Part shown: piece after piece, positions 36,803 to 37,133 of the stretch | Position numbering within the stretch: the stretch's first letter is position 1 | Layout: each line of letters opens with the position of its first letter | NCBI GenBank assembly: GCA_000004695.1 | Contig: CM000153.2 | Location: 1,440,001-1,504,000, forward strand | Reading direction: 5' to 3' | Source: Dictyostelium discoideum | Taxonomy: Eukaryota | DNA: 64,000 nt | Translations under genes and position numbers: made by a program | Notes under the pieces: model-generated | Told to the model about the DNA's origin: nothing | Databases searched by the model: none | What the model saw: the letters and a program-made list of their open reading frames with translations, nothing else

Positions 36803-36857
36803 AGAAAAACTTAAAAAACACTCTTGACTTGTTTTTTATAAACCAGAACCAAAAGTA

Positions 36858-36894
<37 letters not shown>

Positions 36895-37133
36895 TATGAT
36901 GTTTAAACTGGGTCTGTGAACAATTAAGATTTGATAAACACCATTAGAAAAAAATTTCAATTTCAATAGTGTTTATCAAATCTTGATTGTTCACAGACTC
37001 AGTTTAAACATTATTGAAATTGAAATTTTTTGCAAACAAACTTGGTTTAAATATTACACTTAAAACAAAAAAAAAATAAAATAAAATGTCCTTTGACTGG
37101 TTCTGGTTTATAAACCAAACTAAAAAACTTTTA
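36803..37133. repeat. Nested imperfect inverted repeat / long hairpin-capable palindromic element (about 330 bp)
   Basis: Inner arms are 36896-36937 (gtttaaactgggtctgtgaacaattaagatttgataaacac) and 36973-37011 (gtgtttatcaaatcttgattgttcacagactcagtttaaac). That is a 41-bp inverted repeat with 2 mismatches around a ~35-nt spacer. Outer arms are 36838-36860 (ttttataaaccagaaccaaaagtaca) and 37088-37118 (tgtcctttgactggttctggtttataaa), an imperfect inverted repeat with a 16-nt exact core, ttataaaccagaacca. It sits in the divergent intergenic region between the Ank-TPR gene and the gene at 38033. Confidence 0.7.

What the first reader, a model, noticed from the sequence alone, without database searches (positions are those of the whole stretch)
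36803..37133. Nested about 330-bp inverted-repeat (hairpin/cruciform-capable) element in a divergent promoter region
A 41-bp inverted repeat with only 2 mismatches (36896-36937 vs 36973-37011, spacer about 35 nt) is itself nested inside a second, imperfect inverted repeat (core ttataaaccagaacca at 36838 and its complement at about 37098). The segment is markedly less A/T-monotonous than its surroundings. It lies between two divergently oriented genes, 36375 minus-strand start and 38033 plus-strand start. Candidates are a MITE-like non-autonomous DNA transposon (TIR-spacer-TIR), a structured ncRNA, or a cruciform-forming regulatory or replication element.
Basis: seen in the sequence. Interest (0 to 1): 0.5.

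Follow-up and report, generated by a model that had tools for sequence, protein, structure and literature searches.

The report
Strain-variable long DNA palindrome in Dictyostelium
A roughly 290-bp self-complementary DNA segment sits between two divergent genes of Dictyostelium discoideum; it is found only in this species, its two halves evolve together, and it is most likely a palindrome made by DNA-copying errors that could serve as raw material for a new small-RNA gene, though no transcription or function has been shown.

Summary
Window 36831-37120 (D. discoideum AX4 chr4:1,476,831-1,477,120) is one long quasi-palindrome. Its core is a 50-55-nt-arm hairpin (36896-36945 / 36965-37014, 19-nt loop), nested in outer arms that include a T34 tract. 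Fold z-scores are -13 to -21.

It is the only copy in the 64-kb window. It is present in three other D. discoideum assemblies and absent from the syntenic spacer of D. cf. discoideum, D. citrinum, D. dimigraforme and D. firmibasis.

Between D. discoideum strains the core diverges about 11%, as fast as or faster than its flanks. Pairing is nevertheless kept: three compensatory double changes, three wobble changes and one broken pair (simulation P<=0.001).

AX4 carries an extra 43 bp that is itself copied from the palindrome, including a 27-nt inverted copy of the loop region.

Best reading: a lineage-specific palindrome created and kept paired by replication template switching. It forms a pre-miRNA-like hairpin just downstream of a T-tract/G start signature, so it is a candidate proto-miRNA or hairpin-RNA locus.

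It matches no Rfam family and none of the published D. discoideum miRNAs I could check. A MITE is not supported: no target-site duplication and no second copy. Genome-wide copy number and expression could not be tested here.

The parts
36831..36859 (.). Outer left arm of the quasi-palindrome. It contains TTATAAACCAGAACCA and pairs with 37088-37120.
   Evidence: Exact 16-mer inverted pair. Paired in the whole-element fold. 100% identical in all four D. discoideum alleles.
36860..36893 (+). T34 tract, which forms the left arm opposite the A-rich stretch 37062-37087. On the + strand it also looks like the T-rich tract that precedes Pol II start sites in D. discoideum.
   Evidence: Run length. It is T26 in L003 and an interrupted T-rich 29-mer in L001/L002. 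The T-tract + G motif upstream of pri-miRNA and mRNA start sites is described in PMC6161686. Specificity is low: 169 T>=15 runs occur in the window and 33 are followed by G.
36894..36894 (+). G directly after the T tract. This is a putative + strand transcription start, 2 nt before the first base of the central stem. It is inferred, not shown.
   Evidence: Sequence. Motif from PMC6161686.
36896..36945 (+). Central hairpin, 5' arm.
   Evidence: 46 contiguous pairs on the + strand RNA, including G-U pairs.
36946..36964 (+). Central loop (AGAAAAAAATTTCAATTTC...).
36965..37014 (+). Central hairpin, 3' arm.
37005..37031 (.). Inverted copy of 36949-36975 (loop plus the start of the 3' arm): 27 nt with 1 mismatch. 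It creates a second, overlapping palindrome centred near 36990.
   Evidence: An 18-mer exact inverted match. BLAST self-hit 36949-37031. The sequence read directly.
37019..37061 (.). AX4-specific 43-bp segment, absent from strains L001 and L002. The placement of the gap is ambiguous because the segment is flanked by two copies of the distal arm (36993-37014 and 37036-37057).
   Evidence: Alignment A1. It forms a side branch or bulge in the AX4 folds but is missing from the uninterrupted L001/L002 hairpins.
37062..37087 (.). A-rich right arm that pairs with the T tract.
   Evidence: Folds. Pair table helices 3-4.
37088..37120 (.). Outer right arm (TGTCCTTTGACTGGTTCTGGTTTATAAACC...). Clear homology to D. 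cf. discoideum resumes right after it, at about 37117.
   Evidence: Flank homology tests. C37090 is an AX4-reference-specific mismatch; the other three alleles have A there.

Best explanation
The element is a young, D. discoideum-specific quasi-palindrome, about 290 bp in AX4 and about 250 bp in two other strains. It lies in the shared upstream spacer of two divergent genes. I propose it was created, and is kept self-complementary, by replication template switching: intra-strand or inverted copying of one arm from the other.

Shown:
- It is one long hairpin-capable inverted repeat.
- It is present in every D. discoideum assembly available and absent from the same spacer in four related species.
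- Its primary sequence evolves at least as fast as the flanks, yet its arms change together.
- The AX4/L001-L002 length difference is a 43-bp piece built from inverted and duplicated copies of the palindrome itself.

Inferred:
- Template switching is the process responsible.
- The element is selectively near-neutral DNA that happens to place a pre-miRNA-like hairpin (-0.44 kcal/mol/nt over the central 161 nt) 2 nt downstream of a T34-G start-site-like motif on the + strand.
- If transcribed (my estimate about 0.3), the RNA would be a substrate for the Dicer-like enzymes (DrnB/DrnA) and would yield about 21-nt RNAs. That would make it a proto-miRNA or hairpin-RNA locus rather than an established gene.
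For: Structure. Fold z-scores are -13.3 for the core, -15.0 for the whole AX4 element and -20.9 for the L002 allele.

Lineage specificity. BLAST, local alignment and a covariance model built on the four alleles find the hairpin only in the window, L001, L002 and L003. They find nothing in the syntenic spacers of L004-L009.

Rapid sequence change. The core differs 10.5-11.3% between AX4 and L001/L002, against 3.5% in the left flank and 8.3% in the right flank.

Non-independent arms.
- Of 9 substitutions at paired sites between AX4 and L002, 6 form three compensatory doubles: 36896/37014 A-T>G-C, 36909/37001 T-A>C-G and 36927/36983 A-T>G-C.
- Three more are wobble-compatible.
- One further pair (36918/36992) is broken.
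- P(>=3 doubles) is <=0.001 by simulation.
- 96.6% of cells are paired, against 38-52% when partners are slid.

Self-templated rearrangement. The AX4-only 43 bp contains a 27-nt inverted copy (1 mismatch) of 36949-36975 and a second copy of the distal arm.

A similar event nearby. A block of about 55 bp is inverted in L009 within the same spacer.

Literature.
- Template switching creates perfect stems and multibase compensatory changes in one step, and has generated new miRNA hairpins (PMC8794818, PMC10710096).
- It also expands inverted repeats near yeast promoters (PMC13100816).

RNA-side hints.
- All 6 transition-type mismatch positions are G-U on the + strand and none is A-C.
- The + strand folds are 5-10 kcal/mol more stable in all four alleles.
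- The T-tract + G motif matches that reported for 14 pri-miRNAs (PMC6161686).
- Most D. discoideum miRNAs are species-specific, and the D. firmibasis spacer is often shrunken at such loci (PMC11014262). Here it is 669 bp against 1657 bp.
Against: - There is no outgroup sequence from which the pre-palindrome state can be reconstructed, so the founding template-switch event is inferred, not demonstrated. Similarity of either outer arm to D. cf. discoideum is not convincing (p=0.44 and p=0.01 before multiple-test correction).
- Selection on an RNA, or arm-to-arm gene conversion, would produce the same compensatory pattern.
- Only two independent lineages (AX4-type and L001/L002-type) carry the information.
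- The G-U asymmetry (6:0, about p=0.03) hints at an RNA or strand-specific process that a purely neutral DNA model does not require.
- On the RNA side, the hairpin is not in Liao 2018 Table S1 or the Edelbroek 2024 supplements.
- No poly(A)+ lncRNA is listed at chr4:1,476,6xx-1,477,1xx.
- T-tract + G sites are common.
- The T tract is itself half of the palindrome.
Confidence: 0.45

Rival explanations
1. A bona fide hairpin small-RNA gene (young miRNA or hpRNA/endo-siRNA locus) kept paired by natural selection. Pol II would start at G36894 behind the T tract, or further upstream. The transcript would fold into the 46-110-bp stem. A Dicer-like nuclease (DrnB with RbdB, or DrnA) would cut about 21-nt duplexes that load into an Argonaute. 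This can coexist with a template-switch origin.
For: - Compensatory and wobble-only evolution despite about 11% sequence divergence.
- 6 G-U against 0 A-C mismatch positions on the + strand, and consistently stronger + strand folds.
- Hairpin length and energy are close to the range of known ddi-miRNA precursors: 101-187 nt and -0.43 to -0.73 kcal/mol/nt.
- The T-tract + G motif.
- Sub-threshold hits only to miRNA-precursor models in Rfam.
- Species-specific miRNA turnover is the rule in Dictyostelia.
Against: - Not among the miRNAs or candidates in the searchable supplements of three small-RNA studies.
- No lncRNA is annotated over it.
- An almost perfect 46-bp stem tends to fail miRNA criteria. 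One D. discoideum candidate in Edelbroek 2024 is flagged for '0 unpaired bases' and was rejected on manual inspection.
- There is no primary-sequence conservation of any would-be mature RNA between strains.
- In primates only 18 of more than 6,000 template-switch hairpins became miRNA genes (PMC10710096).
- No target was found in the window.
Confidence: 0.25
2. A non-autonomous foldback or MITE-type DNA transposon copy, inserted in the D. discoideum lineage after it split from D. cf. discoideum.
For: - Size (250-290 bp), no coding capacity, and an inverted repeat running the full length.
- G+C higher than the surrounding spacer.
- Present in D. discoideum and absent at the orthologous site in four species, with clear flank homology resuming right at the right end, about 37117.
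- The same spacer has taken up unrelated lineage-specific inserts in the two D. citrinum assemblies.
Against: - No target-site duplication at the ends (sequence).
- No second copy or fragment in the 64-kb window or in nine 21-kb related loci.
- No exact match to core or end sequences in the metagenome contigs.
- The accessible literature describes no MITE family in D. discoideum.
- No clean empty site could be aligned.
- The strain difference is an internal self-templated rearrangement, not a presence/absence polymorphism.
Confidence: 0.12
3. A cis-acting DNA element of the divergent promoter region. It could be a cruciform-forming or dimer-binding inverted repeat, or an origin or insulator, that influences the ankyrin/TPR gene and/or DDB_G0284057.
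For: - Location between divergent genes.
- The single-stranded DNA fold is -45.5 kcal/mol, z=-10.9.
- Inverted-repeat expansions near promoters by template switching are reported in yeast (PMC13100816).
Against: - The likely core promoters lie elsewhere. The T/A tracts next to each ATG are at about 36480-36560 and about 37873-37889.
- A strongly conserved upstream block lies at 37685-37805, not at the palindrome.
- The palindrome is absent from four related species that keep both genes.
- It shows no sequence conservation between strains.
- The 19-nt spacer and the mismatches disfavour cruciform extrusion (established knowledge of cruciform kinetics).
Confidence: 0.08

Closest known systems
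Intergenic miRNA genes of D. discoideum (ddi-mir-1176, -1177, -7097 and others; Liao et al. 2018, PMC6161686; Edelbroek et al. 2024, PMC11014262)
   Same: - Intergenic stem-loop of 100-190 nt with comparable folding energy per nucleotide.
- A T-rich tract followed by G lies upstream on the same strand.
- Restricted to one species, with the orthologous spacer shrunken in D. firmibasis.
   Different: - No small-RNA evidence, and not in the published lists I could search.
- The stem is almost perfect and much longer, up to about 110 bp in L002.
- The putative start G is 2 nt from the stem, instead of 116-281 nt upstream of the 5p arm.
- The T tract is itself part of the palindrome.
Hairpins created and repaired by replication template-switch mutations (Monttinen & Loytynoja 2022, PMC8794818; Monttinen et al. 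2023, PMC10710096; Loytynoja & Goldman 2017, PMC5453318)
   Same: - A lineage-specific reverse-complement repeat.
- Multibase compensatory changes.
- A complex indel whose sequence is an inverted copy of neighbouring bases.
- Potential raw material for a miRNA.
   Different: - The founding event cannot be reconstructed because the outgroup spacers are unalignable.
- The arms are far longer than typical short template-switch events.
- This case is in an 86% A+T amoebozoan spacer rather than primate or rRNA sequence.
MITEs / foldback transposons
   Same: Short, non-coding, inverted repeat from end to end, A+T-rich host context, and lineage-specific presence.
   Different: No target-site duplication, no other copy seen, and no known autonomous partner. 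Variation between strains is internal re-templating.
Long hairpin-RNA (hpRNA) endo-siRNA loci of Drosophila, and young plant MIR genes born from inverted duplications (own knowledge: Okamura 2008; Czech 2008; Allen 2004)
   Same: A long near-perfect inverted repeat that would give a dsRNA stem of 50-110 bp, evolutionarily young.
   Different: The arms show no similarity to any gene. Their 41-aa translation has no relative among 1.84 billion proteins. Expression is unknown.
Inverted-repeat expansions in yeast promoters by template switching (PMC13100816)
   Same: An inverted repeat in a promoter-bearing spacer, with homogenised arms that change in size.
   Different: There the repeats are short transcription-factor sites. 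This one is 250-290 bp and is not conserved as sequence.

Membership tests
Canonical miRNA gene (miRBase high-confidence / Axtell-Meyers criteria as applied to D. discoideum in PMC6161686) | Precursor folds into a hairpin with free energy below -0.2 kcal/mol/nt | tested here: met
   -70.9 kcal/mol over 161 nt, which is -0.44 kcal/mol/nt. The whole element gives -0.35 to -0.46 kcal/mol/nt.
Canonical miRNA gene (miRBase high-confidence / Axtell-Meyers criteria as applied to D. discoideum in PMC6161686) | At least 10 reads each for 5p and 3p species, pairing with 0-4-nt 3' overhangs and homogeneous 5' ends | not testable with these tools
   No read data are available. The sequence is absent from Table S1 of PMC6161686 and from the supplements of PMC11014262.
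Canonical miRNA gene (miRBase high-confidence / Axtell-Meyers criteria as applied to D. discoideum in PMC6161686) | Dependence on the Dicer-like protein DrnB (and RbdB) | not testable with these tools
   Requires mutant small-RNA libraries.
Canonical miRNA gene (miRBase high-confidence / Axtell-Meyers criteria as applied to D. discoideum in PMC6161686) | Imperfect duplex (at least one mismatch or bulge), which distinguishes a miRNA from siRNA-type perfect hairpins | tested here: inconclusive
   The AX4 core has 46 contiguous pairs with only G-U wobbles. L001 and L002 have 1-3 true mismatches.
Any Rfam family | Score at or above the family's gathering threshold | tested here: not met
   There are no hits at gathering thresholds in the whole window. 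The only hits are sub-threshold matches to unrelated miRNA-precursor models, the best being 46.7 bits against a threshold of 100.
MITE / foldback DNA transposon | Terminal inverted repeats | tested here: met
   The whole element is an inverted repeat, and the ends 36836-36851 / 37098-37113 match exactly.
MITE / foldback DNA transposon | Target-site duplication flanking the element | tested here: not met
   No direct repeat abuts the palindrome ends. The nearest shared 8-mer, TAAAAAAC, lies 12 nt from the left end (sequence).
MITE / foldback DNA transposon | Multiple dispersed copies in the genome | tested here: inconclusive
   No other copy occurs in the 64-kb window or in nine 21-kb loci. That is under 0.2% of the 34-Mb genome, and the whole genome is not searchable with these tools.
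MITE / foldback DNA transposon | Insertion polymorphism with a recognisable empty site in relatives | tested here: inconclusive
   The element is absent from four species. The spacers are too diverged to define an empty site.
Template-switch-generated quasi-palindrome | Reverse-complement repeat in cis that is absent from the inferred ancestor | tested here: inconclusive
   The repeat is present and the outgroups lack it. The ancestral sequence cannot be reconstructed.
Template-switch-generated quasi-palindrome | Clustered or complex change explained by one inverted copy of nearby sequence | tested here: met
   The AX4-only 43-bp segment contains 37005-37031, a 27-nt inverted copy (1 mismatch) of 36949-36975.
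Template-switch-generated quasi-palindrome | Concerted (compensatory) change of the two arms beyond what independent mutation predicts | tested here: met
   Three compensatory doubles among 9 paired-site substitutions, P<=0.001. Selection or gene conversion would also give this result.

The most novel reading that the evidence does not exclude
This could be a small-RNA gene caught at birth in an amoebozoan. In that reading, a template-switch palindrome is still being re-templated differently in different D. discoideum strains. Its + strand would be transcribed from the adjoining T34-G start, so that the cap-proximal 5' end of the transcript would itself be the base of the hairpin. That is comparable to 5'-capped pre-miRNAs, which bypass the first cropping step. 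It would yield strain-specific 21-nt RNAs. This would extend the 'miRNAs from template switching' model from primates to a lineage where miRNAs evolved independently.
Probability: 0.12. Interest if true: 0.65.

Novelty: new member of a known kind. Interest (0 to 1): 0.35.

Why it matters
Nearly all Dictyostelium miRNAs are species-specific, and how they arise is unknown. This locus is a concrete, datable example of a long hairpin that:
- appeared within the D. discoideum lineage,
- keeps its pairing while its sequence drifts, and
- differs between strains by a self-templated rearrangement.

If public small-RNA libraries show reads here, it would be a natural test case for de novo miRNA or hairpin-RNA birth by template switching outside animals and plants. 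If they do not, it is still a clean example of how palindromes are maintained at the DNA level. It is also a warning that compensatory substitutions alone do not prove a functional RNA.

Tried and rejected
- **Rfam.** A scan of the whole window at gathering thresholds gave nothing. A permissive scan of the spacer gave only generic sub-threshold pre-miRNA hits.
- **tRNA/tmRNA.** None found, so this is not a tRNA-linked element.
- **Published miRNA lists.** Substring searches of the hairpin in the supplements of Liao 2018 and Edelbroek 2024, and a reading of Liao's Table S1 and Meier 2016's Table 2, gave no match. Avesson 2012 and Glockner 2001 are not held.
- **Full-text search.** A search for 12-mers of the arms returned only unrelated primer hits.
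- **lncRNA supplement (Rosengarten 2017).** It gave the chromosome coordinates, but lists no transcript over the hairpin.
- **Metagenome contigs.** Two exact-match scans, one with core and one with end sequence, gave 0 hits.
- **Coding origin of the arms.** The 41-aa open translation has no relative among 1.84 billion proteins. This argues against an inverted duplication of a gene fragment.
- **Diverged hairpin in outgroups.** The covariance model found only an 11.9-bit hit in D. citrinum L007. I rejected it because it lies inside a coding-like insert unique to that assembly.
- **Homology of the outer arms to D. cf. discoideum.** Suggestive by eye but not significant.
- **First protein search.** The search with the SET/TPR exon was swamped by low-complexity words.
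- **Sliding RNAfold scan of the window.** It timed out. I replaced it with a seed-and-extend inverted-repeat scan.
- **More strains.** An exact look-up of the 123-aa ORF to find more strains returned only the assembly already held.

Full report
**Where we are.** The window is Dictyostelium discoideum. A 463-aa amino-acid-transporter ORF at 32172-33605 is 99% identical to D. discoideum proteins, and its 90% cluster contains DDB_G0284051 of strain AX4. A supplementary table of Rosengarten et al. 2017 places DDB_G0284057 at chr4:1478033-1478404 (+). That is exactly the 123-aa ORF at window 38033-38404, so window position + 1,440,000 gives the AX4 chr4 coordinate. The finding lies in the 1,657-bp spacer between a minus-strand ankyrin/TPR gene (ATG at 36375) and DDB_G0284057.

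**The observation.** It is correct.
- The 41-mer 36901-36941 recurs inverted at 36969-37009 with two mismatches; none is expected by chance.
- Extended, the arms are 50-55 nt with a 19-nt loop.
- The 16-mer TTATAAACCAGAACCA at 36836 has its exact complement at 37098.
- G+C rises to 22-23.5% against 9.5-14.5% around it.
- The two 'nested' repeats are really one object. The T34 tract (36860-36893) pairs with the A-rich stretch 37062-37087, and the whole of 36831-37120 folds into a single hairpin of -108.7 kcal/mol, z=-15.
- The central 161 nt folds at -70.9 kcal/mol on the + strand (z=-13.3) and -63.8 on the - strand.
- A seed-and-extend scan shows no other compact, G+C-containing inverted repeat of this size in the 64 kb.
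- BLAST finds no second copy.

**Comparative data.** I used the transporter protein and its cluster members to fetch the syntenic region, with 10-kb flanks, from nine assemblies:
- three D. discoideum (L001, L002, and the AX4-like L003),
- D. dimigraforme (L004),
- D. firmibasis (L005),
- two D. citrinum (L006, L007),
- two D. cf. discoideum (L008, L009).

Gene order is conserved in all. The hairpin is found only in the D. discoideum assemblies. Local alignment finds only low-complexity matches in the other spacers. A covariance model of the core finds the four alleles at 133-140 bits and nothing credible elsewhere. The one weak hit, in L007, lies within a coding-like insert private to that assembly. 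The two spacer ends align well to D. cf. discoideum. Clear homology stops by about 36717-36771 on the left. On the right it resumes at about 37117, right at the palindrome's right boundary.

**Variation within D. discoideum.**
- L003 has an identical core, a T26 tract, and A instead of C at 37090.
- L001 and L002 carry a simpler, uninterrupted palindrome of about 250 nt (-113 and -124 kcal/mol; z=-20.9 for L002) that lacks 43 bp present in AX4.
- The extra AX4 segment is built from the palindrome itself. Positions 37005-37031 are a 27-nt inverted copy (one mismatch) of the loop and adjoining bases 36949-36975. Positions 37036-37057 are a second, diverged copy of the distal arm.
- The core differs by 10.5-11.3% between AX4 and L001/L002, more than the flanks (3.5% and 8.3%). 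There is no primary-sequence constraint.
- Pairing is still preserved. Of nine substitutions at paired positions between AX4 and L002, six form three compensatory doubles (36896/37014, 36909/37001, 36927/36983) and three are wobble-compatible. One further pair (36918/36992) is broken.
- Random placement of nine substitutions gives three or more doubles with P<=0.001, even if every change is a transition.
- 96.6% of the pair cells are standard pairs, against 38-52% when partners are slid.

The arms therefore do not evolve independently. All of this information comes from one deep split, AX4-type against L001/L002-type.

**Mechanism.** Three processes give concerted arms: selection on a folded RNA, arm-to-arm conversion, and replication template switching.
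- Template switching is known to create perfect stems, to fix mismatched stems, and to cause multibase compensatory changes and complex inverted indels in a single event. It has been shown to seed new miRNA hairpins (PMC8794818, PMC10710096).
- The self-templated 43-bp difference is direct evidence that such events occur at this locus.
- A block of about 55 bp nearby is inverted in L009.

I therefore take template switching as the best-supported account of origin and maintenance. The founding event itself cannot be reconstructed.

**Is it an RNA gene?**

Hints in favour:
- All six transition-type mismatch positions are G-U on the + strand and none is A-C (about p=0.03).
- The + strand fold is 5-10 kcal/mol stronger in all four alleles.
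- The stem begins 2 nt after a T34-G motif. That motif resembles the T-tract + G start sites mapped for pri-mir-1176, -1177 and -7097 and predicted for 14 pri-miRNAs (PMC6161686).
- Hairpin size and energy are close to the range of known ddi-miRNA precursors.
- Species-specific miRNAs with a shrunken orthologous spacer in D. firmibasis are typical (PMC11014262). Here the spacers are 669 bp and 1657 bp.

Points against:
- The sequence is absent from the miRNA and candidate lists I could search.
- No poly(A)+ lncRNA is listed over it.
- T>=15 runs occur 169 times in the window, and 33 are followed by G.
- The T tract is simply the left arm of the palindrome.
- In primates only 18 of more than 6,000 template-switch hairpins became miRNA genes.

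I put about 0.3 on the element being transcribed and diced, and about 0.25 on it being a selected small-RNA gene.

**Transposon reading.** End-to-end inverted repeats, size, composition and lineage-specific presence fit a MITE or foldback element. The same spacer has also acquired unrelated inserts in each D. citrinum assembly. However:
- there is no target-site duplication;
- there is no other copy in about 260 kb examined;
- there is no match in metagenome contigs;
- the accessible literature describes no MITE family for this species;
- the arm translation has no protein relatives.

Genome-wide copy number is the decisive missing test.

**Regulatory or cruciform reading.** The DNA fold is strong (-45.5 kcal/mol). 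Against this:
- the element is missing from four species that keep both genes;
- its sequence is not conserved;
- the conserved upstream block of DDB_G0284057 lies elsewhere, at 37685-37805.

**Verdict.** The element is a real, non-random, D. discoideum-specific quasi-palindrome whose arms co-evolve. It was most likely born from, and is kept paired by, template switching. It may be a proto-miRNA or hairpin-RNA locus. It is a new member of a known kind. Interest is moderate and would rise if public small-RNA data show processing.

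Noticed in passing
window 37685-37805: A non-coding block of about 120 bp (AAAGATATTTAATTGAATTT...TATGACACAACCAAAAATAACGGTTATTTTACCCCC...TTTTTGACTATTTTTAG) is nearly invariant across all eight Dictyostelium group-4 loci aligned. It is far better conserved than the rest of the spacer. It lies 230-350 bp upstream of the DDB_G0284057 ATG and has no Rfam hit. It could be a conserved promoter module, a 5' exon/intron boundary, or an unannotated ncRNA.
   Followed up: partly
L009 15231-15324 versus window 37580-37674: In one D. 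cf. discoideum assembly, the block of about 55 bp TTGAGAGGGTCATTATTGAATTCAAATACCACAGAAAG is present in inverted orientation at 90% identity. This is a small inversion in the same spacer.
   Followed up: partly
L007 14850-15824 and L006 14921-15822: Each of the two D. citrinum assemblies carries a different coding-like insert in the syntenic spacer. L007 has a frameshifted ORF with a DTPG-type GTPase-like motif. L006 has ORFs with a weak DUF7656 match. Neither is shared with the other assembly or with D. discoideum, so this spacer is a hot spot for lineage-specific DNA gain.
   Followed up: partly
window 37520-38585 (-) and 23130-23373 (+): Rosengarten et al. 2017 list an antisense transcript CUFF_3282_1 over DDB_G0284057 (chr4:1477520-1478585, minus). 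It runs toward the palindrome. They also list an lncRNA CUFF_3281_1 at chr4:1463130-1463373.
   Followed up: no
L005 3451-3476 / 3491-3516: D. firmibasis has a perfect 26-nt inverted repeat with a 14-nt loop upstream of the syntenic block. This is another compact hairpin candidate.
   Followed up: no
window 27393-27444 / 27718-27769: A 52-nt inverted repeat, 83% complementary, with arms 274 nt apart, near the start of DDB_G0284049.
   Followed up: no
window 37090: The AX4 reference has C where L003 (AX4-like), L001 and L002 all have A. This creates a T-C mismatch in the outer stem. It is either a private substitution or a reference error.
   Followed up: no
L009 14775-14845: The D. cf. discoideum spacer holds a G+C-richer stretch. 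Its reverse strand reads as an open coding-like tail (KPPPSQIQNGVGSTTQTGGSKKS*), possibly a decayed gene remnant at the position where D. discoideum has the palindrome.
   Followed up: no
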